A DNA stretch of 64,000 nucleotides from the human T2T-CHM13v2.0 reference genome, Homo sapiens, in assembly GCA_009914755.4 (NCBI GenBank), contig CP086569.2, positions 29,248,001 through 29,312,000 on the forward strand, read 5' to 3'. A program made the position numbers and the translations under genes. The notes under the pieces are model-generated. The model made no database searches, was not told the DNA's origin, and saw nothing but the letters and a program-made list of their open reading frames with translations. Of the stretch, positions 31,948 through 56,759 are shown piece after piece. Numbering within the stretch: position 1 is the stretch's first letter; each line of letters opens with the position of its first letter.

Positions 31948-34900
31948 TAATGAAACGGAAAGGAAAGGAATGGAATGGAATGGAATGGGCTGGAATGGAA
32001 AGGAATCGAAACGAATGGAATGGAATCGAACTGAAGAGAGTGGAATGGAATGCACTGGAATGGAAGGGAGTGTAATGGAAGGTTCTCGAAAAAAATGGAA
32101 TCGAATGGAATGGAATTGAGTGGAACGGAATAGAGTCGAATGGAATTGAATGGAATGGAATGGACTAGAGTGAAATGAAATCGAACCACAAGGAATGGAC
32201 AGGAATAGAATGGTCTCGAATTGAATGGAATCGTATGGAATGGCATCAAACGGAATGGAATGGACAGCCACGGAATGGAATGCACTCGAATGCAATGGAG
32301 TCGAAACTTATGGACTAGAATAGAATGGACTCGACTGGTACGGACTCCAATGGAATGGAATCGAATGGAAGGGAATCGAACGGAATGGACTCGAAGGGAA
32401 AAGACTGCAATGGAAAGGTCTCGAATGGAATGGAAATTAATGGAATGGAATGGAATCGAATGAAATGGAGTCAAAAGGAATGGAATCGAATGGCAAGAAA
32501 TCGAATGTAATGGAATCGCAAGGAATTGATGTGAACGGAACGGAATGGAATGGAATCCAAAGGAATGGAATAGAATGGAATGGAATCGAATGGAAAGGAC
32601 TCGAATGGAAATCACTCGAGTAGAATGCAATTTAATAAAATAGGATCAAATGTAATGGAATGGAATGGAAAGGAATCGAAACGAAAGGAATGGAGACAGA
32701 TGGAATGGAATGGAACAGAGAGCAATGGTATAGAATGGAATGGAATCATCTGGAATGGAATTGAATGGAATGGAATAATATGAAATGGAATGGAATGGAA
32801 TGGAATGGAATGCCCTTGAATTAAATGGACTGGAATGGAATGGACTCGAACAGAGTGGAATGGAAAGTGTTGAGATAGAATGGAATGGACTCCTTTGGAA
32901 TGGTGTAGTATGCAATGCAATCGACTGGCAGGGAATCAAAAGGAATGAAATCGAATGGATTCGACTGGAATGCCATGGACTCGAATAGATTGGAAACGGA
33001 ATGCAAAGGAATGGAATGGAATAGTATGGAATGGAATGGAAAGGAATGGAGTGGAATAGACTAGAGTGGAATGGAATGGACTGGAAAGCAATGGACTGGA
33101 ATGGAACTTTCTTGAATGGACTGGAATCAAACGGAATGGAATGCAATGCAATCAAATGGCATGGAATAAAATAGAATGAAAGAGAATCAAATGGAATTGA
33201 ACCGAATGGAATCGAATGGATTGGAAAGGAATAGAATGGAATGGAATGGAATTGACTCAAATGGAATGGACTAGAATGGAATGGATTCGAATGGAAGGCA
33301 AAGGAATGGAATCTATTGGAATGGACTGTAATGGAATGGAATGGAAGGGATTGGAATGGACTCGAATGGAATGGACTGCAATAGAAAGGATTCGAATGGA
33401 ATGAAAAAGAATTGAATGGAATAGAACAGAATGGAATCAAATCGAATGAAATGGAATGGAATAGAAAGGAATGGAATGAAATGGAATGGAAAGGATTCGA
33501 ATGGAATGCAATCGAATGGAATGGAATCGAACGGAATGGAATAAAATGGAAGAAAACTGGCAAGAAATGGAATCGAAATGAATGGAGTGTTATGGAACGG
33601 ACTCAAAAGGAATTGAATGTAATAGAATGGAGTGGAGTGGACTCGAATATAATGGACTGGAATGGAATGAAATCACATGGAATAGGAACGAATGGAATGG
33701 AATGGAAAGGAATGGAATCGAATGGAAAGGAATCGAATGGAAGGGAATGAAATTGAATCAACAGGAATGGAAGGGAATAGAATAGACGGTAATGGAATGG
33801 ACTCGAATAGAATGGACACGAATGCTCAAATTGAATGGACTCGAATGGAATGGAAACGAAAGGAATGTCATCGAATGGAATTGAATCGATTGGAATGAAA
33901 TCGCATAGAATGGAGTGGAATCAAATGGAATTGAATCGAAAGGAAAGGAAGCGAATGGACTGAAATGAAATGGAATGGAATTGAATGGAAAGTAATGCAA
34001 TGGAATAGAATGGAACGAAATTTCACGGAATGGAATCAAACTGAATGGAATCAAATCAATGGAATCAAATCAAATGGAATGGAAAGGAATTGAATGGAGT
34101 AGATGGGATTGGATGGGATTGGAATGAAATGTACTGGAAAGGACTCGAATTTCATGAAACGGAATGGAATGAATTGGAACGGAATGGACTCGAATGGAAT
34201 GGAATGTCATGGAATGGCATCAAATGGAATGGCATCAAATGGAATGGAATCGAATGCAATGGAATGCTATGGAATGGAATGGAATGCATTGGAATGGAAT
34301 GTCCTCTAATGGAATGGATTAGAGTGGAATGGAATCGAATATAATAGAGTCGAATGAAATAGAATTGAAAGGAATGGGATCGAATACAATGGAATATACT
34401 GGAATGTAACGTAATGAACTCGAATGTAATTGACTGGAAAGGAATGTACATGAATGGAATGTAATCGAATGAAAAGTAATCCAATGGAATAGAATCTAAT
34501 GCAATAAAATCGACTCAAATAGAGTAGAATGTAATGGAATGGAGTGCAGTGCAATGGAATTTAATGGAATGGAATGCAATGGAATGGAATGGAATGGAAT
34601 GGAATGGGATGGAATGGTATGGAATGGATAGTAATGGACTGGAGTGAAATGGACTGGAAAGGAATGGATTCAAATTGAAAGGGCTCGAAAGGAATGGAGT
34701 CAAATGGAATGGTCTGGAATGGAATGAACACGAATGTAATGCAATCCAATAGAATGGAATCGAATGGCATGGAATATAAAGAAATGGAATCGAAGAGAAT
34801 GGAAACAAATGGAATGGAATTGAATGGAATGGAATTGAATGGAATGGGAACGAATGGAGTGAAATTGTATGCAGTAGAAGAGAATAGAATGGAATGCAAG

Positions 34901-35496
34901 CGAAAGGAAAGGAATGGATTGGAATGGAATGGAATTCATTGGAATGGAAGGGAATGTAGTGTAATGGACAGGCCTGGAATAAAGTGGAATGCTACGGTCT
35001 CGAATGGAATAAAAATGTATGGAATGGAATGCAATGAAACGGAATCGAATGTCATAGAATGTAATGGAATGCAAAAAAATGGAATCCAAAATCATTGACT
35101 GGAAAGGCTGGGTGTCGAAAGGAATTGACTCCAATGGAATGGAATCGAATGGAATGGAAGTGAATAGAATCGAACTAAATCGAATGGAATGGAATTGATA
35201 GGAACGGATTGGAAAGGAATGCAATGATTTGGCATGGAATGGAATCGAATGGCATCGAATGGAATGGAATGGAATGCAATGGAATGGAATGTATTAGAAT
35301 GTAATGAACTTTAATGGAATGTACTCGAATGGATTCGACTGGAATGGAATGTTCTGGAAGTGAATGGACTCCAATGGAATGGATTCAAAAGGAATGGAAT
35401 CGTACGGAATGGAATCTAATGGAATGGAATTAAATGGAAATGAATCAAATTGAATAGCACGGAATTGAATTGAATGGAATCGAATGCAATGGAATC
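31948..35496 (+). repeat. HOR copy 10 (3549 bp); CTCGAG variant at 32615
   Basis: Landmark at 31948 and 35497. Confidence 0.85.
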
Positions 35497-38400
35497 TAAT
35501 GAAACGGAAAGGAAAGGAATGGAATGGAATGGAATGGAATGGGCTGGAATGGAAAGGAATCGAAACGAATGGAATGGAATCGAACTGAAGAGACTGGAAT
35601 GGAATGCACTGGAATGGAAGGGAGTGTAATGGAAGGTTCTCGAAAAAAATGGAATCGAATGGAATGGAATTGAATGGAACGGAATAGAGTCGAATGGAAT
35701 TGAATGGAATGGAATGGACTAGAGTGAAATGGAATCGAACCACAAGGAATGGACAGGAATAGAATGGTCTCGAATTGAATGGAATCGTATGGAATGGCAT
35801 CAAACGGAATGGAATGGACAGCCACAGAATGGAATGCACTCGAATGCAATGGAGTCGAAACTAATGGACTGGAATAGAATGGACTCGACTGGTACGGACT
35901 CCAATGGAATGGAATCGAATGGAAGGGAATCGAACGGAATGGACTCGAAGGGAAAAGACTGCAATGGAAAGGTCTCGAATGGAATGGAAATTAATGGAAT
36001 GGAATGGAATCGAATGAAATGGAGTCAAAAGGAATGGAATCGAATGGCAAGAAATCGAATGTAATGGAATCGCAAGGAATTGATGTGAACGGAACGGAAT
36101 GGAATGGAATCCAAAGGAATGGAATAGAATGGAATGGAATCGAATGGAAAGGACTCGAATGGAAATCACTCGAATAGAATGCAATTTAATAAAATAGGAT
36201 CAAATGTAATGGGATGGAATGGAAAGGAATCGAAACGAAAGGAATGGAGACAGATGGAATGGAATGGAACAGAGAGCAATGGTATAGAATGGAATGGAAT
36301 CATCTGGAATGGAATTGAATGGAATGGAATAATATGAAATGGAATGGAATGGAATGGAATGGAATGCCCTTGAATTAAATGGACTGGAATGGAATGGACT
36401 CGAACAGAGTGGAATGGAAAGTGTTGAGATAGAATGGAATGGACTCCTTTGGAATGGTGTAGTATGCAATGCAATCGACTGGCAGGGAATCAAAAGGAAT
36501 GTAATGGAATGGATTGGACTGGAATGCAATGGACTCGAATAGATTGGAAACGGAATGCAAAGGAATGGAATGGAATAGTATGGAATGGAATGGAAAGGAA
36601 TGGAGTGGAATAGACTAGAGTGGAATGGAATGGACTGGAAAGCAATGGACTGGAATGGAACTTTCTTGAATGGACTGGAATCAAACGGAATGGAATGCAA
36701 TGCAATCAAATGGCATGGAATAAAATAGAATGAAAGAGAATCAAATGGAATTGAATCGAATGGATTGGAAAGGAATAGAATGGAATGGAATGGAATTGAC
36801 TCAAATGGAATGGACTAGAATGGAATGGATTCGAATGGAAGGCAAAGGAATGGAATCTATTGGAATGGACTGTAATGGAATGGAATGGAAGGGATTGGAA
36901 TGGACTCGAATGGAATGGACTGCAATAGAAAGGATTCGAATGGAATGAAAAAGAATTGAATGGAATAGAACAGAATGGAATCAAATCGAATGAAATGGAA
37001 TGGAATAGAAAGGAATGGAATGAAATGGAATGGAAAGGATTCGAATGGAATGCAATCGAATGGAATGGAATCGAACGGAATGGAATAAAATGGAAGAAAA
37101 CTGGCAAGAAATGGAATCGAAATGAATGGAGTGTTATGGAACGGACTCAAAAGGAATTGAATGTAATAGAATGGAGTGGAGTGGACTCGAATATAATGGA
37201 CTGGAATGGAATGAAATCACATGGAATGGGAACGAATGGAATGGAATGGAAAGGAATGGAATCGAATGGAAAGGAATCGAATGGAAGGGAATGAAATTGA
37301 ATCAACAGGAATGGAAGGGAATAGAATAGACGGTAATGGAATGGACTCGAATAGAATGGACACGAATGCTCAAATTGAATGGACTCGAATGGAATGGAAA
37401 CGAAAGGAATGTCATCGAATGGAATTGAATCGATTGGAATGAAATCGCATAGAATGGAGTGGAATCAAATGGAATTGAATCGAAAGGAAAGGAAGCGAAT
37501 GGACTGAAATGAAATGGAATGGAATTGAATGGAAAGTAATGCAATGGAATAGAATGGAACGAAATTTCACGGAATGGAATCAAACTGAATGGAATCAAAT
37601 GAATGGAATCTAATCAAATGGAATGGAAAGGAATTGAATGGAGTAGATTGGATTGGATGGGATTGGAATGAAATGTACTGGAAAGGACTCGAATTTCATG
37701 AAACGGAATGGAATGAATTGGAACGGAATGGACTCGAATGGAATGGAATGTCATGGAATGGCATCAAATGGAATGGCATCAAATGGAATGGAATCGAATG
37801 CAATGGAATGCTATGGAATGGAATGGAATGCATTGGAATGGAATGTCCTCTAATGGAATGGATTCGAGTGGAATGGAATCGAATATAATAGAGTCGAATG
37901 AAATAGAATTGAAAGGAATGGGATCGAATACAATGGAATATACTGGAATGTAACGTAATGAACTCGAATGTAATTGACTGGAATGGAATGTACATGAATG
38001 GAATGTAATCGAATGGAAAGTAATCCAATGGAATAGAATCTAATGCAATAAAATCGACTCAAATAGAGTAGAATGTAATGGAATGGAGTGCAGTGCAATG
38101 GAATGGAATGGAATGGAATGCAATGGAATGGAATGGAATGGGATGGAATGGTATGGAATGGATAGTAATGGACTGGAGTGAAATGGAGTGGAAAGGAATG
38201 GACTCAAATTGAAAGGGCTCGAAAGGAATGGAGTCAAATGGAATGGTCTGGAATGGAATGAACACGAATGTAATGCAATCCAATAGAATGGAATCGAATG
38301 GCATGGAACATAAAGAAATGGAATCGAAGAGAATGGAAACAAATGGAATGGAATTGAATGGAATGGAATTGAATGGAATGGGAACGAATGGAGTGAAATT

Positions 38401-39030
38401 GTATGCAGTAGAAGAGAATAGAATGGAATGCAAGCGAAAGGAAAGGAATGGATTGGAATGGAATGGAATTCATTGGAATGGAAGGGAATGTAGTGTAATG
38501 GACAGGCCTGGAATAAAGTGGAATGCTACGGTCTCGAATGGAATAAAAATGTATGGAATGGAATGCAATGAAACGGAATCGAATGTCATAGAATGTAATG
38601 GAATGCAAAAAAATGGAATCCAAAATCATTGACTGGAAAGGCTGGGTGTCGAAAGGAATTGACTCCAATGGAATGGAATCGAATGGAATGGAAGTGAATA
38701 GAATCGAACTAAATCGAATGGAATGGAATTGATAGGAACGGAATGGAAAAGAATGCAATGATTTGGCATGGAATGGAATCGAATGGCATCGAATGGAATG
38801 GAAAGGAATGCAATGGAATGGAATGTATTAGAATGTAATGAACTTTAATGGAATGTACTCGAATGGATTCGACTGGAATGGAATGTTCTGGAAGTGAATG
38901 GGCTCCAATGGAATGGATTCAAAAGGAATGGAATCGTACGGAATGGAATCTAATGGAATGGAATTAAATGGAAATGAATCAAATTGAATAGCACGGAATT
39001 GAATTGAATGGAATCGAATGCAATGGAATC
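35497..39030 (+). repeat. HOR copy 11 (3534 bp); 10-bp deletion near 36765
   Basis: Landmark at 35497 and 39031. Confidence 0.85.
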
Positions 39031-42000
39031 TAATGAAACGGAAAGGAATGGAGTGCAATGGAATGGAATGGAATGGGCTGGAATGGAAAGGAATCGAAAC
39101 GAATGGAATGGAATCGAACTGAAGAGACTGGAATGGAATGCACTGGAATGGAAGGGAGTGTAATGGAAGGTTCTCGACAAAAATGGAATCGAATGGAATG
39201 GAATTGAATGGAACGGAATAGGGTCTAATGGAATTGAATGGAATGGAATGGACTAGAGTGAAATGGAATCGAACCACAAGGAATGGACAGGAATAGAATG
39301 GTCTCGAATTGAATGGAATCGTATGGAATGGCATCAAACGGAATGGAATGGACAGCCACGGAATGGAATGCACTCGAATGCAATGGAGTCGAAACTAATG
39401 GACTGGAATAGAATGGACTCGACTGGTACGGACTCCAATGGAATGGAATCGAATGGAAGGGAATCGAACGGAATGGACTCGAAGGGAAAAGACTGCAATG
39501 GAAAGGTCTCGAATGGAATGGAAATTAATGGAATGGAATGGAATCGAATGAAATGGAGTCAAAAGGAATGGAATCGAATGGCAAGAAATCGAATGTAATG
39601 GAATCGCAAGGAATTGATGTGAACGGAACAGAATGGAATGGAATCCAAAGGAATGGAATAGAATGGAATGGAATCGAATGGAAAGGACTCGAATGGAAAT
39701 CACTCGAATAGAATGCAATTTAATAAAATAGGATCAAATGTAATGGAATGGAATGGAAAGGAATCGAAACGAAAGGAATGGAGACAGATGGAATGGAATG
39801 GAACAGAGAGCAATGGTATAGAATGGAATGGAATCATCTGGAATGGAATTGAATGGAATGGAATAATATGAAATGGAATGGAATGGAATGGAATGGAATG
39901 CCCTTGAATTAAATGGACTGGAATGGAATGGACTCGAACAGAGTGGAATGGAAAGTGTTGAGATAGAATGGAATGGACTCCTTTGGAATGGTCTAGTATG
40001 CAATGCAATCGACTGGCAGGGAATCAAAAGGAATGTAATCGAATGGATTGGACTGGAATGCAATGGACTCGAATAGATTGGAAACGGAATGCAAAGGAAT
40101 GGAATGGAATAGTATGGAATGGAATGGAAAGGAATGGAGTGGAATAGACTAGAGTGGAATGGAATGGACTGGAAAGCAATGGACTGGAATGGAACTTTCT
40201 TGAATGGACTGGAATCAAGCGGAATGGAATGCAATGCAATCAAATGGCATGGAATAAAATAGAATGAAAGAGAATCAAATGGAATTGAATCGAATGGAAT
40301 CGAATGGATTGGAAAGGAATAGAATGGAATGGAATGGAATGGACTAGAATGGAATGGATTCGAATGGAAGGCAAAGGAATGGAATCTATTGGAATGGACT
40401 GTAATGGAATGGAATGGAAGGGATTGGAATGGACTCGAATGGAATGGACTGCAATAGAAAGGATTCGAATGGAATGAAAAAGAATTGAATGGAATAGAAC
40501 AGAATGGAATCAAATCGAATGAAATGGAATGGAATAGAAAGGAATGGAATGAAATGGAATGGAAAGGATTCGAATGGAATGCAATCGAATGGAATGGAAT
40601 CGAACGGAATGGAATAAAATGGAAGAAAACTGGCAAGAAATGGAATCGAAATGAATGGAGTGTTATGGAACGGACTCAAAAGGAATTGAATGTAATAGAA
40701 TGGAGTGGAGTGGACTCGAATATAATGGACTGGAATGGAATGAAATCACATGGAATGGGAACGAATGGAATGGAATGGAAAGGAATGGAATCGAATGGAA
40801 AGGAATCGAATGGAAGGGAATGAAATTGAATCAACAGGAATGGAAGGGAATAGAATAGACGGTAATGGAATGGACTCGAATAGAATGGACACGAATGCTC
40901 AAATTGAATGGACTCGAATGGAATGGAAACGAAAGGAATGTCATCGAATGGAATTGAATCGATTGGAATGAAATCGCATAGAATGGAGTGGAATCAAATG
41001 GAATTGAATCGAAAGGAAAGGAAGCGAATGGACTGAAATGAAATGGAATGGAATTGAATGGAAAGTAATGCAATGGAATAGAATGGAACGAAATTTCACG
41101 GAATGGAATCAAACTGAATGGAATCAAATCAATGGAATCAAATCAAATGGAATGGAAAGGAATTGAATGGAGTAGATTGGATTGGATGGGATTGGAATGA
41201 AATGTACTGGAAAGGACTCGAATTTCATGAAACGGAATGGAATGAATTGGAACGGAATGGACTCGAATGGAATGGAATGTCACGGAATGGCATCAAATGG
41301 AATGGCATCAAATGGAATGGAATCGAATGCAATGGAATGCTATGGAATGGAATGGAATGCATTGGAATGGAAGGTCCTCTAATGGAATGGATTCGAGTGG
41401 AATGGAATCGAATATAATGGAGTCGAATGAAATGGAATTGAAAGGAATGGGATCGAATACAATGGAATATACAGGAATGTAATGTAATGAACTCGAATGT
41501 AATTGACTGGAATGGAATGTACATGAATGGAATGTAATCGAATGGAAAGTAATCCAATGGAATAGAATCTAATGCAATAAAATCGACTCAGATAGAGTAG
41601 AATGTAATGGAATGGAGTGCAGTGCAATGGAATGGAATGGAATGGAATGCAATGGAATGGAATGGAATGGAATGGAATGGAATGGAATGGGATGGAATGG
41701 TATGGAATGGATAGTAATGGACTGGAGTGAAATGGACTGGAAAGGAATGGATTCAAATTGAAAGGGCTCGAAAGGAATGGAGTCAAATGGAATGGTCTGG
41801 AATGGAATGAACACGAATGTAATGCAATCCAATAGAATGGAATCGAACGGCATGGAATATAAAGAAATGGAATTGAAGAGAATGGAAACAAATGGAATGG
41901 AATTGAATGGAATGGAATTGAATGGAATGGGAACGAATGGAGTGAAATTGTATGCAGTAGAAGAGAATAGAATGGAATGCAAGCGAAAGGAAAGGAATGG

Positions 42001-42579
42001 ATTGGAATGGAATGGAATTCATTGGAATGGAAGGGAATGTAGTGTAATGGACAGGCCTGGAATAAAGTGGAATGCTACGGTCTCGAATGGAATAAAAATG
42101 TATGGAATGGAATGCAATGAAACGGAATCGAATGTCATAGAATGTAATGGAATGCAAAAAAATGGAATCCAAAATCATTGACTGGAAAGGCTGGGTGTCG
42201 AAAGGAATTGACTCCAATGGAATGGAATCGAATGGAATGGAAGTGAATAGAATCGAACTAAATCGAATGGAATGGAATTGATAGGAACGGATTGGAAAGG
42301 AATGCAATGATTTGGCATGGAATGGAATCGAATGGCATCGAATGGAATGGAATGGAATGCAATGGAATGGAATGTATTAGAATGTAATGAACTTTAATGG
42401 AATGTACTCGAATGGATTCGACTGGAATGGAATGTTCTGGAAGTGAATGGACTCCAATGGAATGGATTCAAAAGGAATGGAATCGTACGGAATGGAATCT
42501 AATGGAATGGAATTAAATGGAAATGAATCAAATTGAATAGCACGGAATTGAATTGAATGGAATGGAATGCAATGGAATC
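39031..42579 (+). repeat. HOR copy 12 (3549 bp); 15-bp deletion near 40340
   Basis: Landmark at 39031 and 42580. Confidence 0.85.
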
Positions 42580-45500
42580 TAATGAAACGGAAAGGAAAGG
42601 AATGGAATGGAATGGAATGGTCTGGAATGGAAAGGAATCGAAACGAATGGAATGGAATCGAACTGAAGAGACTGGAATGGAATGCACTGGAATGGAAGGG
42701 AGTGTAATGGAAGGTTCTCGAAAAAAATGGAATCGAATGGAATGGAATTGAATGGAACGGAATAGAGTCGAATGGAATTGAATGGAATAGAATGGACTAG
42801 AGTGAAATGGAATCGAACCACAAGGAATGGACAGGAATAGAATGGTCTCGAATTGAATGGAATCGTATGGAATGGCATCAAACGGAATGGAATGGACAGC
42901 CACGGAATGGAATGCACTCGAATGCAATGGAGTCGAAACTAATGGACTGGAATAGAATGGACTCGACTGGTACGGACTCCAATGGAATGGAATCGAATGG
43001 AAGGGAATCGAACGGAATGGACTCGAAGGGAAAAGACTGCAATGGAAAGGTCTCGAATGGAATGGAAATTAATGGAATGGAATGGAATCGAATGAAATGG
43101 AGTCAAAAGGAATGGAATCGAATGGCAAGAAATCGAATGTAATGGAATCGCAAGGAATTGATGTGAACGGAACGGAATGGAATGGAATCCAAAGGAATGG
43201 AATAGAATGGAATGGAATCGAATGGAAAGGACTCGAATGGAAATCACTCGAATAGAATGCAATTTAATAAAATAGGATCAAATGTAATGGAATGGAATGG
43301 AAAGGAATCGAAACGAAAGGAATGGAGACAGATGGAATGGAATGGAACAGAGAGCAATGGTATAGAATGGAATGGAATCATCTGGAATGGAATTGAATGG
43401 AATGGAATAATATGAAATGGAATGGAATGGAATGGAATGGAATGCCCTTGAATTAAATGGACTGGAATGGAATGGACTCGAACAGAGTGGAATGGAAAGT
43501 GTTGAGATAGAATGGAATGGACTCCTTTGGAATGGTGTAGTATGCAATGCAATCGACTGGCAGGGAATCAAAAGGAATGTAATGGAATGGATTGGACTGG
43601 AATGCAATGGACTCGAATAGATTGGAAACGGAATGCAAAGGAATGGAATGGAATAGTATGGAATGGAATGGAAAGGAATGGAGTGGAATAGACTAGAGTG
43701 GAATGGAATGGACTGGAAAGCAATGGACTGGAATGGAACTTTCTTGAATGGACTGGAATCAAACGGAATGGAATGCAATGCAATCAATGGCATGGAATAA
43801 AATAGAATGAAAGAGAATCAAATGGAATTGAATCGAATGGATTGGAAAGGAATAGAATGGAATGGAATGGAATTGACTCAAATGGAATGGACTAGAATGG
43901 AATGGATTCGAATGGAAGGCAAAGGAATGGAATCTATTGGAATGGACTGTAATGGAATGGAATGGAAGGGATTGGAATGGACTCGAATGGAATGGACTGC
44001 AATAGAAAGGATTCGAATGGAATGAAAAAGAATTGAATGGAATAGAACAGAATGGAATCAAATCGAATGAAATGGAATGGAATAGAAAGGAATGGAATGA
44101 AATGGAATGGAAAGGATTCGAATGGAATGCAATCGAATGGAATGGAATCGAACGGAATGGAATAAAATGGAAGAAAACTGGCAAGAAATGGAATCGAAAT
44201 GAATGGAGTGTTATGGAACGGACTCAAAAGGAATTGAATGTAATAGAATGGAGTGGAGTGGACTCGAATATAATGGACTGGAATGGAATGAAATCACATG
44301 GAATGGGAACGAATGGAATGGAATGGAAAGGAATGGAATCGAATGGAAAGGAATCGAATGGAAGGGAATGAAATTGAATCAACAGGAATGGAAGGGAATA
44401 GAATAGACGGTAATGGAATGGACTCGAATAGAATGGACACGAATGCTCAAATTGAATGGACTCGAATGGAATGGAAACGAAAGGAATGTCATCGAATGGA
44501 ATTGAATCGATTGGAATGAAATCGCATAGAATGGAGTGGAATCAAATGGAATTGAATCGAAAGGAAAGGAAGCGAATGGACTGAAATGAAATGGAATGGA
44601 ATTGAATGGAAAGTAATGCAATGGAATAGAATGGAACGAAATTTCACGGAATGGAATCAAACTGAATGGAATCAAATCAATGGAATATAATCAAATGGAA
44701 TGGAAAGGAATTGAATGGAGTAGATTGGATTGGATGGGATTGGAATGAAATGTACTGGAAAGGACTCGAATTTCATGAAACGGAATGGAATGAATTGGAA
44801 CGGAATGGACTCGAATGGAATGGAATGTCATGGAATGGCATCAAATGGAATGGCATCAAATGGAATGGAATCGAATGCAATGGAATGCTATGGAATGGAA
44901 TGGAATGCATTGGAATGGAATGTCCTCTAATGGAATGGATTCGAGTGGAATGCAATCGAATATAATAGAGTCGAATGAAATAGAATTGAAAGGAATGGGA
45001 TCGAATACAATGGAATATACTGGAATGTAACGTAATGAACTCGAATGTAATTGACTGGAATGGAATGTACATGAATGGAATGTAATCGAATGGAAAGTAA
45101 TCCAATGGAATAGAATCTAATGCAATAAAATCGACTCAGATAGAGTAGAATGGAATGGAATGGAGTGCAGTGCAATGGAATGGAATGGAATGGAATGCAA
45201 TGGAATGGAATGGAATGGGATGGAATGGTATGGAATGGATAGTAATGGACTGGAGTGAAATGGACTGGAAAGGAATGGACTCAAATTGAAAGGGCTCGAA
45301 AGGAATGGAGTCAAATGGAATGGTCTGGAATGGAATGAACACGAATGTAATGCAATCCAATAGAATGGAATCGAATGGCATGGAATATAAAGAAATGGAA
45401 TCGAAGAGAATGGAAACAAATGGAATGGAATTGAATGGAATGGAATTGAATGGAATGGGAACGAATGGAGTGAAATTGTATGCAGTAGAAGGGAATAGAA

Positions 45501-46107
45501 TGGAATGCAAGCGAAAGGAAAGGAATGGATTGGAATGGAATGGAATTCATTGGAATGGAAGGGAATGTAGTGTAATGGACAGGCCTGGAATAAAGTGTAA
45601 TGCTACGGTCTCGAATGGAATAAACATGTATGGAATGGAATGCAATGAAACGGAATCGAATGTCATAGAATGTAATGGAATGCAACAAAATGGAATCCAA
45701 AATCATTGACTGGAAAGGCTGGGTGTCGAAAGGAATTGACTCCAATGGAATGGAATCGAATGGAATGGAAGTGAATAGAATCGAACTAAATCGAATGGAA
45801 TGGAATTGATAGGAACGGAATGGAAAGGAATGCAATGATTTGGCATGGAATGGAATCGAATGGCATCGAATGGAATGGAATGGAATGCAATGGAATGGAA
45901 TGTATTAGAATGTAATGAACTTTAATGGAATGTACTCGAATGGATTCGACTGGAATGGAATGTTCTGGAAGTGAATGGACTCCAATGGAATGGATTCAAA
46001 AGGAATGGAATCGTACGGAATGGAATCTAATGGAATGGAATTAAATGGAAATGAATCAAATTGAATAGCACGGAATTGAATTGAATGGAATGGAATGCAA
46101 TGGAATC
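42580..46107 (+). repeat. HOR copy 13 (3528 bp); 10-bp deletion near 43835 and a 1-bp deletion at about 43785
   Basis: Landmark at 42580 and 46108. Confidence 0.85.
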
Positions 46108-49100
46108 TAATGAAACGGAAAGGAATGGAATGGAATGGAATGGAATGGAATGGAATGGAATGGGCTGGAATGGAAAGGAATCGGAACGAATGGAATGGAA
46201 TCGAACTGAAGAGACTGGAATGGAATGCACTGGAATGGAAGGGAGTGTAATGGAAGGTTCTCGAAAAAAATGGAATCGAATGGAATGGAATTGAATGGAA
46301 CGGAATAGAGTCGAATGGAATTGAATGGAATGGAATGGACTGGAGTGAAATGGTATCGAACCACAAGGAATGGACAGGAATAGAATGGTCTCGAATTGAA
46401 TGGAATCGTATGGAATGGCATCAAACGGAATGGAATGGACAGCCACGGAATGGAATGCACTCGAATGCAATGGAGTCGAAACTAATGGACTGGAATAGAA
46501 TGGACTCGACTGGTACGGACTCCAATGGAATGGAATCGAATGGAAGGGAATCGAACGGAATGGACTCGAAGGGAAAAGACTGCAATGGAAAGGTCTCGAA
46601 TGGAATGGAAATTAATGGAATGGAATGGAATCGAATGAAATGGAGTCAAAAGGAATGGAATCGAATGGCAAGAAATCGAATGTAATGGAATCGCAAGGAA
46701 TTGATGTGAACGGAACGGAATGGAATGGAATCCAAAGGAATGGAATAGAATGGAATGGAATCGAATGGAAAGGACTCGAATGGAAATCACTCGAATAGAA
46801 TGCAATTTAATAAAATAGGATCAAATGGAATGGAATGGAATGGAAAGGAATCGAAACGAAAGGAATGGAGACAGATGGAATGGAATGGAACAGAGAGCAA
46901 TGGTATAGAATGGAATGGAATCATCTGGAATGGAATTGAATGGAATGGAATAATATGAAATGGAATGGAATGGAATGGAATGGAATGCCCTTGAATTAAA
47001 TGGACTGGAATGGAATGGACTCGAACAGAGTGGAATGGAAAGTGTTGAGATAGAATGGAATGGACTCCTTTGGAATGGTGTAGTATGCAATGCAATCGAC
47101 TGGCAGGGAATTAAAAGGAATGTAATCGAATGGATTGGACTGGAATGCAATGGACTCGAATAGATTGCAAACGGAATGCAAAGGAATGGAATGGAATAGT
47201 ATGGAATGGAATGGAAAGGAATGGAGTGGAATAGACTAGAGTGGAATGGAATGGACTGGAAAGCAATGGACTGGAATGGAACTTTCTTGAATGGACTGGA
47301 ATCAAGCGGAATGGAATGCAATGCAATCAAATGGCATGGAATAAAATAGAATGAAAGAGAATCAAATGGAATTGAATCGAATGGAATCGAATGGATTGGA
47401 AAGGAATAGAATGGAATGGAATGGAATGGACTAGAATGGAATGGATTCGAATGGAAGGCAAAGGAATGGAATCTATTGGAATGGACTGTAATGGAATGGA
47501 ATGGAAGGGATTGGAATGGACTCGAATGGAATGGACTGCAATAGAAAGGATTCGAATGGAATGAAAAAGAATTGAATGGAATAGAACAGAATGGAATCAA
47601 ATCGAATGAAATGGAATGGAATAGAAAGGAATGGAATGAAATGGAATGGAAAGGATTCGAATGGAATGCAATCGAATGGAATGGAATCGAACGGAATGGA
47701 ATAAAATGGAAGAAAACTGGCAAGAAATGGAATCGAAATGAATGGAGTGTTATGGAACAGACTCAAAAGGAATTGAATGTAATAGAATGGAGTGGAGTGG
47801 ACTCGAATATAATGGACTGGAATGGAATGAAATCACATGGAATGGGAACGAATGGAATGGAATGGAAAGGAATGGAATCGAATGGAAAGGAATCGAATGG
47901 AAGGGAATGAAATTGAATCAACAGGAATGGAAGGGAATAGAATAGACGGTAATGGAATGGACTCGAATAGAATGGACACGAATGCTCAAATTGAATGGAC
48001 TCGAATGGAATGGAAACGAAAGGAATGTCATCGAATGGAATTGAATCGATTGGAATGAAATCGCATAGAATGGAGTGGAATCAAATGGAATTGAATCGAA
48101 AGGAAAGGAAGCGAATGGACTGAAATGAAATGGAATGGAATTGAATGGAAAGTAATGCAATGGAAGAGAATGGAACGAAATTTCACGGAATGGAATCAAA
48201 CTGAATGGAATCAAATCAATGGAATATAATCAAATGGAATGGAAAGGAATTGAATGGAGTAGATTGGATTGGATGGGATTGGAATGAAATGTACTGGAAA
48301 GGACTCGAATTTCATGAAACGGAATGGAATGAATTGGAACGGAATGGACTCGAATGGAATGGAATGTCATGGAATGGCATCAAATGGAATGGCATCAAAT
48401 GGAATGGAATCGAATGCAATGGAATGCTATGGAATGGAATGGAATGCATTGGAATGGAATGTCCTCTAATGGAATGGATTCGAGTGGAATGGAATCGAAT
48501 ATAATGGAGTCGAATGAAATGGAATTGAAAGGAATGGGATCGAATACAATGGAATATACTGGAATGTAATGTAATGAACTCGAATGTAATTGACTGGAAT
48601 GGAATGTACATGAATGGAATGTAATCGAATGGAAAGTAATCCAATGGAATAGAATCTAATGCAATAAAATCGACTCAGATAGAGTAGAATGTAATGGAAT
48701 GGAGTGCAGTGCAATGGAATGGAATGGAATGGAATGCAATGGAATGGAATGGAATGGAATGGAATGGAATGGAATGGGATGGAATGGTATGGAGTGGATA
48801 GTAATGGACTGGAGTGAAATGGACTGGAAAGGAATGGACTCAAATTGAAAGGGCTCGAAAGGAATGGAGTCAAATGGAATGGTCTGGAATGGAATGAACA
48901 CGAAAGTAATGCAAACCAATAGAATGGAATCGAATGGCATGGAATATAAAGAAATGGAATCGAAGAGAATGGAAACAAATGGAATGGAATTGAATGGAAT
49001 GGAATTGAATGGAATGGGAACGAGTGGAGTGAAATTGTATGCAGTAGAAGGGAATAGAATGGAATGCAAGCGAAAGGAAAGGAATGGATTGGAATGGAAT

Positions 49101-49651
49101 GGAATTCATTGGAATGGAAGGGAATGTAGTGTAATGGACAGGCCTGGAATAAAGTGGAATGCTACGGTCTCGAATGGAATAAAAATGTATGGAATGGAAT
49201 GCAATGAAACGGAATCGAATGTCATAGAATGTAATGGAATGCAAAAAAATGGAATCCAAAATCATTGACTGGAAAGGCTGGGTGTCGAAAGGAATTGACT
49301 CCAATGGAATGGAATCGAATGGAATGGAAGTGAATAGAATCGAACTAAATCGAATGGAATGGAATTGATAGGAACGGAATGGAAAGGAATGCAATGATTT
49401 GGCATGGAATGGAATCGAATGGCATCGAATGGAATGGAATGGAATGCAATGGAATGGAATGTATTAGAATGTAATGAACTTTAATGGAATGTACTCGAAT
49501 GGATTCGACTGGAATGGAATGTTCTGGAAGTGAATGGACTCCAATGGAATGGATTCAAAAGGAATGGAATCGTACGGAATGGAATCTAATGGAAATGAAT
49601 CAAATTGAATAGCACGGAATTGAATTGAATGGAATGGAATGCAATGGAATC
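46108..49651 (+). repeat. HOR copy 14 (3544 bp); 15-bp deletion near 47425 and another 15-bp deletion near 49585
   Basis: Landmark at 46108 and 49652. Confidence 0.85.
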
Positions 49652-52600
49652 TAATGAAACGGAAAGGAAAGGAATGGAATGGAATGGAATGGGCTGGAAT
49701 GGAAAGGAATCGAAACGAATGGAATGGAATCGAACTGAAGAGACTGGAATGGAATGCACTGGAATGGAAGGGAGTGTAATGGAAGGTTCTCGACAAAAAT
49801 GGAATCGAATGGAATGGAATTGAATGGAACGGAATAGAGTCGAATTGAATTGAATGGAATGGAATGGACTAGAGTGAAATGGAATCGAACCACAAGGAAT
49901 GGACAGGAATAGAATGGTCTCGAATTGAATGGAATCGTATGGAATGGCATCAAACGGAATGGAATGGACAGCCACGGAATGGAATGCACTCGAATGCAAT
50001 GGAGTCGAAACTAATGGACTGGAATAGAATGGACTCGACTGGTACGGACTCCAATGGAATGGAATCGAATGGAAGGGAATCGAACGGAATGGACTCGAAG
50101 GGAAAAGACTGCAATGGAAAGGTCTCGAATGGAATGGAAATTAATGGAATGGAATGGAATCGAATGAAATGGAGTCAAAAGGAATGGAATCGAATGGCAA
50201 GAAATCGAATGTAATGGAATCGCAAGGAATTGATGTGAACGGAACGGAATGGAATGGAATCCAAAGGAATGGAATAGAATGGAATGGAATCGAATGGAAA
50301 GGACTCGAATGGAAATCACTCGAATAGAATGCAATTTAATAAAATAGGATCAAATGTAATGGAATGGAATGGAAAGGAATCGAAACGAAAGGAATGGAGA
50401 CAGATGGAATGGAATGGAACAGAGAGCAATGGTATAGAATGGAATGGAATCATCTGGAATGGAATTGAATGGAATGGAATAATATGAAATGGAATGGAAT
50501 GGAATGGAATGGAATGCCCTTGAATTAAATGGACTGGAATGGAATGGACTCGAACAGAGTGGAATGGAAAGTGTTGAGATAGAATGGAATGGACTCCTTT
50601 GGAATGGTCTAGTATGCAATGCAATGGACTGGCAGGGAATCAAAAGGAATGTAATCGAATGGAATGGACTGGAATGCAATGGACTCGAATAGATTGCAAA
50701 CGGAATGCAAAGGAATGGAATGGAATAGTATGGAATGGAATGGAAAGGAATGGAGTGGAATAGACTAGAGTGGAATGGAATGGACTGGAAAGCAATGGAC
50801 TGGAATGGAACTTTCTTGAATGGACTGGAATCAAGCGGAATGGAATGCAATGCAATCAAATGGCATGGAATAAAATAGAATGAAAGAGAATCAAATGGAA
50901 TTGAATCGAATGGAATCGAATGGATTGGAAAGGAATAGAATGGAATGGAATGGAATTGACTCAAATGGAATGGACTAGAATGGAATGGATTCGAATGGAA
51001 GGCAAAGGAATGGAATCTATTGGAATGGACTGTAATGGAATGGAAAGGAAGAGATTGGAATGGACTCGAATGGAATGGACTGCAATAGAAAGGATTCGAA
51101 TGGAATGAAAAAGAATTGAATGGAATAGAACAGAATGGAATCAAATCGAATGAAATGGAATGGAATAGAAAGGAATGGAATGAAATGGAATGGAAAGGAT
51201 TCGAATGGAATGCAATCGAATGGAATGGAATCGAACGGAATGGAATAAAATGGAAGAAAACTGGCAAGAAATGGAATCGAAATGAATGGAGTGTTATGGA
51301 ACGGACTCAAAAGGAATTGAATGTAATAGAATGGAGTGGAGTGGACTCGAATATAATGGACTGGAATGGAATGAAATCACATGGAATGGGAACGAATGGA
51401 ATGGAATGGAAAGGAATGGAATCGAATGGAAAGGAATCGAATGGAAGGGAATGAAATTGAATCAACAGGAATGGAAGGGAATAGAATAGACGGTAATGGA
51501 ATGGACTCGAATAGAATGGACACGAATGCTCAAATTGAATGGACTCGAATGGAATGGAAACGAAAGGAATGTCATCGAATGGAATTGAATCGATTGGAAT
51601 GAAATCGCATAGAATGGAGTGGAATCAAATGGAATTGAATCGAAAGGAAAGGAAGCGAATGGACTGAAATGAAATGGAATGGAATTGAATGGAAAGTAAT
51701 GCAATGGAATAGAATCGAACGAAGTTTCACGGAATGGAATCAAACTGAATGGAATCAAATCAATGGAATCTAATCAAATGGAATGGAAAGGAATTGAATG
51801 GAGTAGATTGGATTGGATGGGATTGGAATGAAATGTACTGGAAAGAACTCGAATTTCATGAAACGGAATGGAATGAATTGGAACGGAATGGACTCGAATG
51901 GAATGGAATGTCATGGAATGGCATCAAATGGAATGGCATCAAATGGAATGGAATCGAATGCAATGGAATGCTATGGAATGGAATGGAATGCATTGGAATG
52001 GAATGTCCTCTAATGGAATGGATTCGAGTGGAATGGAATCGAATATAATGGAGTCGAATGAAATGGAATTGAAAGGAATGGGATCGAATACAATGGAATA
52101 TACTGGAATGTAATGTAATGAACTCGAATGTAATTGACTGGAATGGAATGTACATGAATGGAATGTAATCGAATGGAAAGTAATCCAATGGAATAGAATC
52201 TAATGCAATAAAATCGACTCAGATAGAGTAGAATGTAATGGAATGGAGTGCAGTGCAATGGAATGGAATGGAATGGAATGCAATGGAATGGAATGGAATG
52301 GAATGGAATGGAATGGGATGGAATGGTATGGAATGGATAGTAATGGACTGGAGTGAAATGGACTGGAAAGGAATGGACTCAAATTGAAAGGGCTCGAAAG
52401 GAATGGAGTCAAATGGAATGGTCTGGAATGGAATGAACACGAAAGTAATGCAATCCAATAGAATGGAATCGAATGGCATGGAATATAAAGAAATGGAATC
52501 GAAGAGAATGGAAACAAATGGAATGGAATTGAATGGAATGGAATTGAATGGAATGGGAACGAATGGAGTGAAATTGTATGCAGTAGAAGGGAATAGAATG

Positions 52601-53205
52601 GAATGCAAGCGAAAGGAAAGGAATGGATTGGAATGGAATGGAATTCATTGGAATGGAAGGGAATGTAGTGTAATGGACAGGCCTGGAATAAAGTGGAATG
52701 CTACGGTCTCGAATGGAATAAAAATGTATGGAATGGAATGCAATGAAACGGAATCGAATGTCATAGAATGTAATGGAATGCAAAAAAATGGAATCCAAAA
52801 TCATTGACTGGAAAGGCTGGGTGTCGAAAGGAATTGACTCCAATGGAATGGAATCGAATGGAATGGAAGTGAATAGAATCGAACTAAATCGAATGGAATG
52901 GAATTGATAGGAACGGAATGGAAAGGAATGCAATGATTTGGCATGGAATGGAATCGAATGGCATCGAATGGAATGGAATGGAATGCAATGGAATGGAATG
53001 TATTAGAATGTAATGAACTTTAATGGAATGTACTCGAATGGATTCGACTGGAATGGAATGTTCTGGAAGTGAATGGGCTCCAATGGAATGGATTCAAAAG
53101 GAATGGAATCGTACGGAATGGAATCTAATGGAATGGAATTAAATGGAAATGAATCAAATTGAATAGCACGGAATTGAATTGAATCGAATCGAATGCAATG
53201 GAATC
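49652..53205 (+). repeat. HOR copy 15 (3554 bp)
   Basis: Landmark at 49652 and 53206. Confidence 0.85.
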
Positions 53206-56200: not shown

Positions 56201-56759
56201 ATTGGAATGGAAGGGAATGTAGTGTAATGGACAGGCCTGGAATAAAGTGGAATGCTACGGTCTCGAATGGAATAAAAATGTATGGAATGGAATGCAATGA
56301 AACGGAATCGAATGTCATAGAATGTAATGGAATGCAAAAAAATGGAATCCAAAATCATTGACTGGAAAGGCTGGGTGTCGAAAGGAATTGACTCCAATGG
56401 AATGGAATCGAATGGAATGGAAGTGAATAGAATCGAACTAAATCGAATGGAATGGAATTGATAGGAACGGAATGGAAAGGAATGCAATGATTTGGCATGG
56501 AATGGAATCGAATGGCATCGAATGGAATGGAATGGAATGCAATGGAATGGAATGTATTAGAATGTAATGAACTTTAATGGAATGTACTCGAATGGATTCG
56601 ACTGGAATGGAATGTTCTGGAAGTGAATGGGCTCCAATGGAATGGATTCAAAAGGAATGGAATCGTACGGAATGGAATCTAATGGAATGGAATTAAATGG
56701 AAATGAATCAAATTGAATAGCACGGAATTGAATTGAATCGAATCGAATGCAATGGAATC
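53206..56759 (+). repeat. HOR copy 16 (3554 bp)
   Basis: Landmark at 53206 and 56760. Near-identical to copy 17 in its first half and to copy 15 in its second half. Confidence 0.85.

What the first reader, a model, noticed from the sequence alone, without database searches (positions are those of the whole stretch)
35497..49651. Superimposed 2-HOR (~7.1 kb) periodicity: indel haplotypes alternate A-B-A-B
A 10-bp deletion ('gaatcgaatgg^attggaaagg', losing 'aatcgaatgg') is present near 36765 and 43835, a spacing of about 7070 bp. It is absent from the copy in between. A different 15-bp deletion ('ggaatggaatggaatgg^actagaatgg', losing 'aattgactcaaatgg') is present near 40340 and 47425, a spacing of about 7085 bp. 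It is absent from the intervening copies. The second deletion is reflected in the 300-aa versus 305-aa minus-strand pseudo-ORFs at 39734 and 46821. Copies 11 and 13 also share 'gtaatggaatggattgg', where their neighbours have 'gtaatcgaatgg'. Together these define a dimeric super-repeat of two HOR variants across at least four copies. This is higher-order structure above the canonical DYZ1 unit.
Basis: seen in the sequence. Interest (0 to 1): 0.55.

Follow-up and report, generated by a model that had tools for sequence, protein, structure and literature searches.

The report
Old two-unit duplication inside DYZ1 satellite
Within an ordinary stretch of the human Y-chromosome DYZ1 satellite, one 7.1-kb segment (two repeat units) was duplicated in tandem long ago, which makes four neighbouring units alternate A-B-A-B; this is the expected footprint of unequal exchange, not a new layer of repeat organisation.

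Summary
The window holds 18 tandem DYZ1 (HSat3A6) units of about 3.55 kb. Their consensus is 99.5% identical to a published DYZ1 unit. A 10-bp deletion occurs only in units 11 and 13. A 15-bp deletion occurs only in units 12 and 14. Both sit at homologous alignment columns, and about seven further variants co-segregate with them.

The alternation covers exactly two periods: D = 34,629-41,711 and D' = 41,712-48,797. The boundaries are sharp and fall at the same phase of the unit. D and D' differ by 43 mismatches and 3 gaps (about 99.3% identity). Control 7-kb comparisons differ by 57-78 mismatches and 7-8 gaps.

Across the whole window, similarity falls steadily with lag, so there is no 7.1-kb periodicity. 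The youngest event here is a one-unit duplication at 51.4-58.5 kb, with 1 mismatch in 3,553 bp.

The 15-bp deletion is already published as a DYZ1 variant, and it occurs in 6 of about 48 external DYZ1 units. The 10-bp deletion was found in none of them.

Best explanation: a single, fairly old unequal exchange with a two-unit offset, later blurred by mutation and patchy conversion. This is ordinary satellite dynamics and of low interest.

The parts
34629..41711 (.). D: first copy of the 7.08-kb two-unit block. It comprises the tail of unit 10, all of unit 11, and the head and centre of unit 12. The left boundary lies somewhere in 34,587-34,669.
   Evidence: Lag-2 differences drop from 15 in about 500 columns to 0 in 690 columns at this point. 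Every lag-2-specific rare derived variant lies between unit positions 10.77 and 12.74. This is the window-wide minimum for lag-2 divergence. A pairwise global alignment against D' gives 43 mismatches and 3 gaps.
41712..48797 (.). D': second copy of the block. It comprises the tail of unit 12, all of unit 13, and the head and centre of unit 14. The D/D' junction lies in 41,670-41,752 and the right boundary in 48,757-48,839.
   Evidence: The last marker where unit 12 matches unit 14 is at column 2703. The first marker where unit 12 matches unit 10 but not unit 14 is at column 2785 (2785T, then 3325T). Unit 12 is therefore a hybrid: a 14-like body joined to a 10-like tail, as expected for the junction unit of an unequal exchange.
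36752..36753 (.). 10-bp deletion (A marker) in unit 11: loss of one of two tandem GAATCGAATG copies.
   Evidence: The diagnostic junction 22-mer GGAATTGAATCGAATGGATTGG occurs only at 36,747 and 43,824. The deletion was found in 0 of about 48 external DYZ1 units.
43829..43830 (.). The same 10-bp deletion in unit 13.
40332..40333 (.). 15-bp deletion (B marker) in unit 12: loss of AATGGAATTGACTCA.
   Evidence: It is identical to the deletion at positions 1729-1743 of MZT1b relative to MZT1a in PMC3925983 Additional file 2. It is also present in 6 metagenome-derived human contigs.
47419..47420 (.). The same 15-bp deletion in unit 14.
37890..37954 (.). Three linked derived SNVs (G>A, G>A, T>C at 37,890, 37,905 and 37,954) in unit 11. 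The same three are in unit 13 at 44,967, 44,982 and 45,031, and also in units 10, 17 and 18.
   Evidence: Absent from 27-28 external units.
44967..45031 (.). The same three SNVs in unit 13.
40219..40219 (.). A>G at alignment column 1207 in unit 12. Also in unit 14 at 47,306 and in units 8 and 15.
   Evidence: Found in 0 of 32 external units.
47306..47306 (.). The same A>G change in unit 14.
38103..38137 (.). Shortest (AATGG)n run of the variable pentamer tract (alignment columns 2659-2703) in unit 11. The same length is found in unit 13 (about 45,180-45,214) and in unit 17. Units 12 and 14 share a longer run (41,632-41,690 and 48,719-48,777).
   Evidence: This tract is the same one reported as variable, with a 20-bp indel at positions 390-411, in PMC3925983.
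39734..40636 (-). 300-aa pseudo-ORF shortened by the 15-bp deletion. Its twin is at 46,821-47,723. It is a by-product of the sequence composition, not a gene.
   Evidence: The translation is a run of pentamer-derived peptide repeats (mostly ...SIPFH...). No identical product is on record in the gene-position collection.

Best explanation
The window is a stretch of the human Y-chromosome long-arm satellite DYZ1 (HSat3A6), read on the GGAAT-rich strand. The A-B-A-B pattern is the footprint of a single unequal exchange in which the two partners were misaligned by exactly two units (about 7.08 kb). The partners were probably sister chromatids, or a replication or repair template switch.

Proposed sequence of events:
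1. The ancestral array read: unit 10, unit 11, a proto-unit 12/14, unit 15. In marker terms this is a-a-b-b.
2. Unit 11 had already lost 10 bp, and the proto-unit 12/14 had already lost 15 bp.
3. The crossover fell near alignment columns 2703-2785. It joined the body of the b unit to the tail of unit 10.
4. The result is 10, 11, 12 (hybrid), 13 (copy of 11), 14 (copy of the b unit), 15. In marker terms this is a-a-b-a-b-b.

Since then the two 7.08-kb copies have diverged to about 0.6-0.7%. The divergence comes from point mutation, slippage in the pentamer runs, and probably patchy gene conversion.

What is shown: the array is DYZ1; the deletions are homologous and restricted to the stated units; the block boundaries lie where stated; and D/D' is the most similar two-unit pair in the window.

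What is inferred: that one exchange event rather than several conversions produced the pattern; that the partner was a sister chromatid; and that the event is old.
For: Identity as DYZ1:
- The consensus is 99.5% identical over 3,564 bp to the published unit MZT1a.
- The units are about 3.55 kb and there is one HaeIII site per unit in 17 of 18 units.
- The HSat3A6-specific 24-mer is present 33 times, and markers of seven other HSat3 subfamilies are absent.

A single two-unit block:
- All lag-2-specific derived variants that are rare or absent outside the window fall in one contiguous interval, from unit position 10.77 to 12.74. That is 1.97 units, and a single two-unit duplication predicts 2.0. 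These variants are 2785T, 3325T, 1028G, the 10-bp deletion, 2427A/2442A/2491C, the 10-bp run shortening, the column 22-37 insertion, 1207G and the 15-bp deletion.
- The left boundary is sharp.
- Unit 12 is a hybrid. Its body matches unit 14, and its tail matches unit 10 with 3 differences in about 830 columns, against 10 differences from unit 14.
- D against D' gives 43 mismatches and 3 gaps. Lag-1, lag-3 and flanking lag-2 controls give 57-78 mismatches and 7-8 gaps.
- The lag-2 divergence minimum among 141 sliding spans falls at unit position 10.79.

Plausibility of the mechanism:
- Yq12 shows sister chromatid exchanges and patterns of iterative tandem duplication consistent with unequal exchange (10.1101/2022.12.01.518724).
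- Hallast et al. name replication slippage, NAHR and possibly gene conversion as causes of expansion within arrays (10.1101/2022.12.01.518658).
- A clean one-unit duplication in the same window shows the process operating here (1 mismatch in 3,553 bp).
Against: - Divergence between D and D' is uneven. Counted per sixth of a unit it is 2, 6, 2, 1, 1, 4, 7, 14, 2, 3, 2, 6. The stretch 37.6-39.3 kb against 44.7-46.4 kb is no more similar than background.
- Unit 13 shares 2147A and 2997G with unit 14, and lacks the column 22-37 insertion that unit 11 carries. Extra conversion or mutation events must therefore be assumed.
- Bootstrap support for 11+13 over the whole unit is only 56%.
- In substitutions, unit 13 is as close to unit 18 (20) as to unit 11 (20).
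- The 15-bp deletion is found elsewhere on a different haplotype, so on its own it is weak evidence that units 12 and 14 are related.
- Random ordering of the units gives an equally strong ABAB quartet in 21% of trials.
Confidence: 0.6

Rival explanations
1. No duplication took place. Instead, short-tract gene conversion between units lying two apart (10 to 12, 11 with 13, 12 with 14) copied 0.7-1.8-kb patches, so that fixed units resemble their second neighbours.
For: - The similarity is patchy, and the high-similarity stretches lie at 34.8-35.5 kb, 36.2-37.6 kb and 40.1-41.1 kb.
- Units 11-14 are mosaics whose nearest relative changes along the unit.
- The three SNVs at columns 2427-2491 span only 65 bp and look like a conversion tract shared with units 10, 17 and 18.
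- About 17% of de novo SNV events in Yq12 are reported as consistent with gene conversion (PMC13252187).
Against: - It needs at least three independent events, all at a lag of exactly two units, that together tile one contiguous two-unit interval with a sharp common phase. One exchange explains this more simply.
- The indel profile also favours whole-block copying: 3 gaps against 7-8 in the controls.
Confidence: 0.2
2. The two deletions each arose twice independently by replication slippage. The alternation is a coincidence.
For: - Both deletions lie between direct repeats: a perfect 10-bp tandem duplication, and AATGG pentamers.
- The 15-bp deletion occurs outside the window on a different haplotype.
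- 15-bp and 20-bp indels are reported as frequent in DYZ1 (PMC3925983).
- If the external frequency of 6 in 48 applies, about two B units among 18 is the expected number.
Against: - The 10-bp deletion was found in 0 of about 48 external units. In units 11 and 13 it sits on the same local haplotype: 1028G, three SNVs absent outside the window, and the same shortened pentamer run. Only 1 difference separates the two units across 1,407 columns.
- Units 12 and 14 also share 1207G (0 of 32 outside the window) and the column 22-37 insertion.
Confidence: 0.07
3. One reading: a true 7.1-kb dimeric higher-order repeat of DYZ1 that is, or is becoming, homogenised and amplified. The window shows only part of it.
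For: - Locally, differences per unit at lags 1, 2 and 3 are 36.2, 26.4 and 38.3.
- There is a faint second hint of alternation in units 1-4.
Against: - Only two periods exist.
- The flanking lag-2 comparisons are at or close to background level (76 and 57 mismatches, 8 gaps each).
- The whole-window lag profile rises steadily with lag.
- The A junction was found in none of about 48 external units.
- No paper in the searched library describes a DYZ1 dimer.
- The copies are not young, at about 0.6% divergence.
Confidence: 0.05
4. Assembly artefact: long reads from two similar DYZ1 stretches were interleaved or a segment was duplicated by the assembler.
For: Yq12 is reported to be error-prone in assembly, with loops in tandem repeats left unwalked or mis-walked (PMC13252187).
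Against: - D and D' differ at 43 substitutions spread across the block. An assembler-made duplicate would be near-identical.
- The one-unit duplicate at 51.4-58.5 kb would be a more likely candidate for such an artefact.
Confidence: 0.05

Closest known systems
DYZ1 / HSat3A6, the 3.56-kb Y-specific HSat3 repeat of Yq12
   Same: - Unit length is 3,529-3,588 bp.
- The units are built from diverged GGAAT/TTCCA pentamers.
- There is one HaeIII and one EcoRI site per unit.
- The consensus is 99.5% identical to the published MZT1a unit.
- The HSat3A6 24-mer and DYZ1 PCR primers match once or twice per unit.
   Different: Nothing essential. This stretch simply carries local variants and a two-unit duplication.
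Published DYZ1 15-bp indel (MZT1b against MZT1a, positions 1729-1743; PMC3925983 Additional file 2)
   Same: It is base-for-base the same deletion as in units 12 and 14: TGAGTCAATTCCATT on the TTCCA strand.
   Different: - In the paper it was reported as a difference between the consensus sequences of twins, not as a positional marker within an array.
- External carriers in metagenome contigs sit on a different haplotype from units 12 and 14.
Tandem duplications by unequal exchange in Yq12 (Rhie et al. T2T-Y preprint) and expansion within DYZ arrays (Hallast et al. preprint)
   Same: Head-to-tail duplication in register with the repeat, as expected from unequal sister chromatid exchange, replication slippage or NAHR.
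   Different: - Scale. The published examples are up to 5 Mb and span several DYZ1/DYZ2 blocks, whereas this one is 7.08 kb, or two units.
- The published examples are recent, detected as exact 2000-mer matches. This one has diverged by about 0.6%.
Alpha-satellite higher-order repeats and their multimer variants
   Same: The idea is the same: a multi-unit block behaving as the unit of duplication.
   Different: As background knowledge (not tested here), alpha-satellite higher-order repeats are repeated many times, and their copies are far more alike than the monomers inside them. Here there are two copies, and the gain in identity is about 0.4-0.7 percentage points.

Membership tests
DYZ1 / HSat3A6 satellite | Tandem unit of about 3.56 kb built from diverged TTCCA/GGAAT pentamers | tested here: met
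   There are 18 units of 3,529-3,588 bp. GGAAT occurs 4,260 times on the + strand and ATTCC 0 times. TRF reports period 5 across 2-63,975.
DYZ1 / HSat3A6 satellite | One HaeIII site per unit, giving the classical 3.4/3.56-kb HaeIII fragment (3,569 bp was the commonest fragment length in 6 of 7 genomes in Hallast et al.) | tested here: met
   There are 17 GGCC sites spaced 3,528-3,564 bp apart. Only unit 7 lacks the site (literature).
DYZ1 / HSat3A6 satellite | Sequence identity to a published DYZ1 unit | tested here: met
   The window consensus against MZT1a (transcribed from PMC3925983 Additional file 2) gives 99.5% identity over 3,564 bp, with 8 mismatches and 1 gap. Individual units are 97.4-98.9% identical to it.
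DYZ1 / HSat3A6 satellite | Subfamily-specific markers: the HSat3A6 24-mer is present and markers of other HSat3 subfamilies are absent; DYZ1 PCR primers match | tested here: met
   The HSat3A6 24-mer has 33 exact hits. The 24-mers of seven other subfamilies have 0 hits even with one mismatch allowed. Six of 8 primers from PMC3925983 hit 17-18 times with at most 1 mismatch. A 154-bp primer pair recalled from memory also matches about once per unit.
DYZ1 / HSat3A6 satellite | Located in Yq12 and interspersed with DYZ2/HSat1B blocks | not testable with these tools
   The window is pure DYZ1 and has no flanking sequence. No human genome collection is available to place it.
Homogenised higher-order repeat (7.1-kb dimer as a repeating unit) | Many tandem periods of the multi-unit block | tested here: not met
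   There are exactly two periods (34,629-48,797). The flanking lag-2 comparisons show 76 and 57 mismatches with 8 gaps each, at or close to background.
Homogenised higher-order repeat (7.1-kb dimer as a repeating unit) | Copies of the block are clearly more alike than the units inside it | tested here: not met
   D against D' is about 99.3% identical. Lag 1 is about 98.6% and lag 3 about 98.9% when gaps are counted as single events. This gain is small. Units 11-14 each carry 7-11 variants that are private within the window.
Homogenised higher-order repeat (7.1-kb dimer as a repeating unit) | The periodicity is visible across the array | tested here: not met
   Whole-window differences per unit at lags 1-6 are 36.8, 40.6, 42.0, 43.1, 42.9 and 43.0.
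Single tandem duplication by unequal exchange | Two adjacent head-to-tail copies whose length is a whole number of units | tested here: met
   The copies are 7,083 and 7,086 bp, that is two units each.
Single tandem duplication by unequal exchange | Boundaries at the same phase of the unit, with a hybrid junction unit | tested here: met
   All three boundaries lie between alignment columns 2703 and 2785. Unit 12 has a 14-like body and a 10-like tail.
Single tandem duplication by unequal exchange | Even divergence along the duplicated block | tested here: inconclusive
   The profile is uneven (2, 6, 2, 1, 1, 4, 7, 14, 2, 3, 2, 6). The peak coincides in part with the generally hypervariable head of the unit, where 28 of 185 private variants fall. 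A chi-square test I worked by hand from the segment counts, scaling expectations to the background divergence of each quarter, gave p of about 0.06.
Single tandem duplication by unequal exchange | A copy-number difference (two units against four) between related chromosomes | not testable with these tools
   This needs orthologous DYZ1 blocks from other complete Y assemblies.

The most novel reading that the evidence does not exclude
The A-B dimer may be the seed, or a local sample, of a 7.1-kb DYZ1 super-repeat that has been amplified elsewhere in Yq12 or in particular Y haplogroups. In that case DYZ1 would have a second, so far undescribed level of higher-order organisation.
Probability: 0.05. 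Interest if true: 0.35.

Novelty: already known. Interest (0 to 1): 0.15.

Why it matters
It matters little beyond bookkeeping. The finding is a worked example, at base resolution, of how DYZ1 arrays evolve. One 64-kb stretch holds an old two-unit duplication, a very young one-unit duplication, and conversion-like mosaics.

Two outputs may be useful to others:
- The junction 22-mer of the 10-bp deletion, GGAATTGAATCGAATGGATTGG. It was absent from about 48 external DYZ1 units, so it could tag this block in other Y assemblies and help date the event.
- The warning that the 15-bp deletion is a common and possibly recurrent DYZ1 variant, so it should not be used as a lineage marker on its own.

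Tried and rejected
- A literature search for the 154-bp DYZ1 primer sequence recalled from memory found no paper. I replaced it with primers and a full unit taken from PMC3925983 and a 24-mer from PMC4022460.
- A fuzzy-regex allele caller gave wrong gap lengths. I replaced it with the spacing between fixed anchors.
- External contigs carrying the 15-bp deletion showed only 85-95% overall identity, which at first suggested a diverged subfamily. Profiles in 200-column windows showed cores that are 98-100% identical apart from a few 15-bp indels, plus scrambled contig ends, so I dropped that idea.
- Looking up the two 300-aa pseudo-ORFs in the gene-position collection found nothing.
- The viral contig scan found no DYZ1.
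- The apparent excess of long near-identical tracts between units 11 and 13 is partly a property of a generally low-diversity segment (columns about 1340-2100). Units 9 and 17 share it too, so I did not use it as independent evidence.
- A test for depletion of private variants in the central part of units 11-14 was only marginal: 4 observed against about 9 expected, by my hand calculation.
- The random-order permutation test did not make the ABAB quartet significant (p = 0.21). I report it as a limit on the periodicity claim.
- No paper in the searched library describes a 7.1-kb DYZ1 dimer.


Full report
**What the window is.** The + strand is a continuous array derived from GGAAT pentamers. 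GGAAT occurs 4,260 times and ATTCC never, and TRF reports period 5 across 2-63,975. A k-mer lag spectrum and an anchor search show a higher-order unit of about 3.55 kb repeated 18 times. The unit boundaries are 1, 3531, 7084, 10634, 14197, 17745, 21280, 24823, 28411, 31944, 35493, 39030, 42576, 46105, 49648, 53204, 56758, 60296 and 63839, and unit lengths are 3,529-3,588 bp.

The array is DYZ1 (HSat3A6), as shown by direct tests:
- There is one HaeIII and one EcoRI site per unit.
- Six of eight DYZ1 primers from PMC3925983 match 17-18 times with at most one mismatch.
- The HSat3A6-specific 24-mer from PMC4022460 has 33 exact hits, while the 24-mers of seven other HSat3 subfamilies have none.
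- The window consensus is 99.5% identical over 3,564 bp to the published DYZ1 unit MZT1a, which I transcribed from Additional file 2 of PMC3925983.

The location in Yq12 could not be tested.

**Checking the observation.** I aligned the 18 units with MAFFT (3,612 columns).
- The 10-bp deletion removes one of two tandem GAATCGAATG copies at columns 1275-1284. It is present only in units 11 and 13 (36,752/3 and 43,829/30).
- The 15-bp deletion removes AATGGAATTGACTCA at columns 1321-1340. It is present only in units 12 and 14 (40,332/3 and 47,419/20).
- The 300-aa against 305-aa minus-strand ORFs are as described. They are artefacts of a pentamer repeat that has no stop codons.
- The 'gtaatggaatgg' variant is in units 11 and 13, but also in units 1, 6 and 7.
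- Further variants co-segregate. Units 10, 11, 13, 17 and 18 carry 2427A, 2442A and 2491C. Units 11, 13 and 17 carry a shortened (AATGG)n run. Units 8, 12, 14 and 15 carry 1207G. Units 11, 12, 14, 16 and 17 carry an insertion at columns 22-37. Units 12 and 14 carry a lengthened (AATGG)n run.

Within units 11-14, sites that split two against two fall ABAB:AABB:ABBA = 12:2:0.

**How strong the periodicity is.** It is weak. Units 11-14 carry 51 variants private to one unit within the quartet, and each unit has 7-11 variants that are private within the whole window. NJ bootstrap support is 88% for 12+14 but only 56% for 11+13. It disappears when only the head and tail of the unit are used.

Across the whole window, differences per unit rise steadily with lag: 36.8, 40.6, 42.0 and 43.1 for lags 1-4. 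Only in the interval from unit position 10.8 to 15.0 does lag 2 (26.4) fall below lag 1 (36.2) and lag 3 (38.3). Randomly re-ordering the 18 units gives a quartet with at least 12 ABAB sites in 21% of trials. What is supported is shared descent of two pairs of units, not an array-wide 7.1-kb repeat.

**Anatomy of the event.** I listed every difference between positions two units apart. It shows a sharp switch near column 2745 of unit 10 (about 34.63 kb). There are 15 differences in the 500 columns before it, then two changes private to unit 12, and then none for 690 columns.

I used 46 external DYZ1 fragments to decide which alleles are derived. Every derived variant that is shared by units two apart, and is rare or absent outside the window, lies between unit positions 10.77 and 12.74. 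That is 1.97 units. The last marker where unit 12 matches unit 14 is at column 2703. The first marker where unit 12 matches unit 10 but not unit 14 is at column 2785.

The duplicated blocks are therefore D = 34,629-41,711 and D' = 41,712-48,797, each boundary known to within about 40 bp. Unit 12 is the hybrid junction unit.

An independent pairwise global alignment gives 43 mismatches and 3 gaps for D against D'. The controls give:

| Comparison | Mismatches | Gaps |
|---|---|---|
| D against D' | 43 | 3 |
| Lag 1 | 78 | 7 |
| Lag 3 | 62 | 8 |
| Upstream lag-2 pair | 76 | 8 |
| Downstream lag-2 pair | 57 | 8 |

 D/D' is also the minimum of 141 sliding two-unit spans at lag 2: 53 events against a median of 83.

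**Mechanism.** The marker order in units 10-15 is a-a-b-a-b-b. This is what one unequal exchange with a two-unit offset would produce from an a-a-b-b ancestor. A hybrid unit at the junction fits the same model. Published work gives the mechanism direct support in this region:
- Strand-seq detects sister chromatid exchanges in Yq12, and tandem duplication patterns there are attributed to unequal exchange (10.1101/2022.12.01.518724).
- Hallast et al. name replication slippage, NAHR and possibly gene conversion as causes of expansion within arrays (10.1101/2022.12.01.518658).

The same window holds a clean one-unit duplicate: 51,374-54,926 against 54,928-58,480, with 1 mismatch in 3,553 bp. So the process operates here, and the two-unit event is much the older of the two.

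I made a rough age estimate from pedigree data in PMC13252187 (35 non-redundant SNV events in six transmissions, mean Yq12 length 27.1 Mb). It puts D/D' at the order of 10^4 generations. This is inference only.

**What does not fit cleanly.** Divergence between D and D' is uneven. The stretch 37.6-39.3 kb against 44.7-46.4 kb is at background level. Unit 13 shares 2147A and 2997G with unit 14 and lacks the column 22-37 insertion of unit 11. There are also clusters of private SNVs, for example at 45,598-45,686.

Part of the peak in divergence coincides with the generally hypervariable head of the unit. The rest probably reflects later patchy conversion, which is reported for Yq12. Because of this, I keep a conversion-only history as a rival at 0.2.

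**External evidence on the two deletions.** I scanned public collections with one gapped pattern that spans both indel sites. It found 36 stretches of human DNA in metagenome assemblies and 9 in bacterial genome assemblies, and none in viral contigs.

Among about 48 external units, roughly 39 have neither deletion, 6 have the 15-bp deletion, and none has the 10-bp deletion. External carriers of the 15-bp deletion sit on a different haplotype. They have a 5-bp deletion at columns 855-864 and other 15-bp deletions, and they lack 1207G.

The same 15-bp deletion is printed in the MZT1a/MZT1b alignment of PMC3925983, at positions 1729-1743. It is therefore a known and widespread, or recurrent, DYZ1 variant, and on its own it is weak evidence of kinship. 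The 10-bp deletion and the three nearby SNVs appear to be local to this stretch.

**Comparison with what is known, and verdict.** The array is canonical DYZ1. A short multi-unit tandem duplication is the expected product of unequal exchange in a satellite. It does not meet the criteria for a homogenised higher-order repeat: it lacks many periods, it lacks a clear identity gain, and it lacks array-wide periodicity. No paper in the searched library reports a 7.1-kb DYZ1 dimer, but none is needed to explain the data.

The finding is real and its interpretation is overstated. Its novelty is low and I score interest at 0.15. The most novel reading the evidence does not exclude is that the dimer is amplified elsewhere in Yq12. 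I give that about 5%.

Noticed in passing
window 51374-58480: This is the youngest event in the window: a one-unit tandem duplication. 51,374-54,926 and 54,928-58,480 differ by 1 mismatch and no gaps in 3,553 bp. It makes unit 16 a hybrid whose head matches unit 17 and whose tail matches unit 15.
   Followed up: yes
window 20757-27889 (unit 7): Unit 7 has lost the HaeIII site, so a virtual digest gives a 7,132-bp fragment here. Extra EcoRI sites occur at 5402, 21213 and 24757.
   Followed up: partly
window 1-14196 (units 1-4): Units 1-4 form their own clade, sharing variants such as 2468G, 3208A and 3503G. They also show a faint second alternation, with units 2 and 4 matching and units 1 and 3 matching at columns 2138, 2352, 2659-2688 and 2705. 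NJ support for 2+4 is 60-71%.
   Followed up: partly
window 34600-35492 vs 62950-63838 (tails of units 10 and 18): The last 900 columns of units 10 and 18 differ by a single event although the units lie eight units (28 kb) apart. Units 12 and 17 belong to the same tail lineage (2785T and/or 3325T). This points to long-range exchange or an older, larger duplication.
   Followed up: partly
window about 27442-27520 (unit 8): Unit 8 is the longest at 3,588 bp. It has about 30-35 extra bases in the (AATGG)n/AATGC tract at columns 2660-2693 and one extra pentamer next to the site of the 15-bp deletion.
   Followed up: no
loci L037-L045 (genome contigs): Human DYZ1 fragments are deposited as contigs of bacterial and archaeal genome assemblies. 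The assemblies are Actinomadura cremea JCM 3308, three Streptomyces JCM strains, Streptosporangium violaceochromogenes JCM 3281, Mycobacterium ostraviense 241/15, Actinacidiphila cocklensis DSM 42063 and two MAGs. This indicates contamination with male human DNA.
   Followed up: partly
loci L007, L012, L024 (metagenome contigs): External DYZ1 contigs that carry the 15-bp deletion also share several other 15-bp deletions (columns 2158, 2290, 3507, 420) and a 5-bp deletion at columns 855-864. Loss of three pentamers at a time seems to be a recurrent class of mutation in DYZ1, or a distinct sub-lineage exists. The ends of these short-read contigs are scrambled.
   Followed up: partly
window, minus strand, e.g. 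14899-15816, 60997-61947: There are ORFs of 300-316 aa on the minus strand in many units. They translate to runs of pentamer-derived peptide repeats (mostly ...SIPFH...). They exist only because the TTCCA-derived repeat has few stop codons. No identical product is on record in the gene-position collection.
   Followed up: yes
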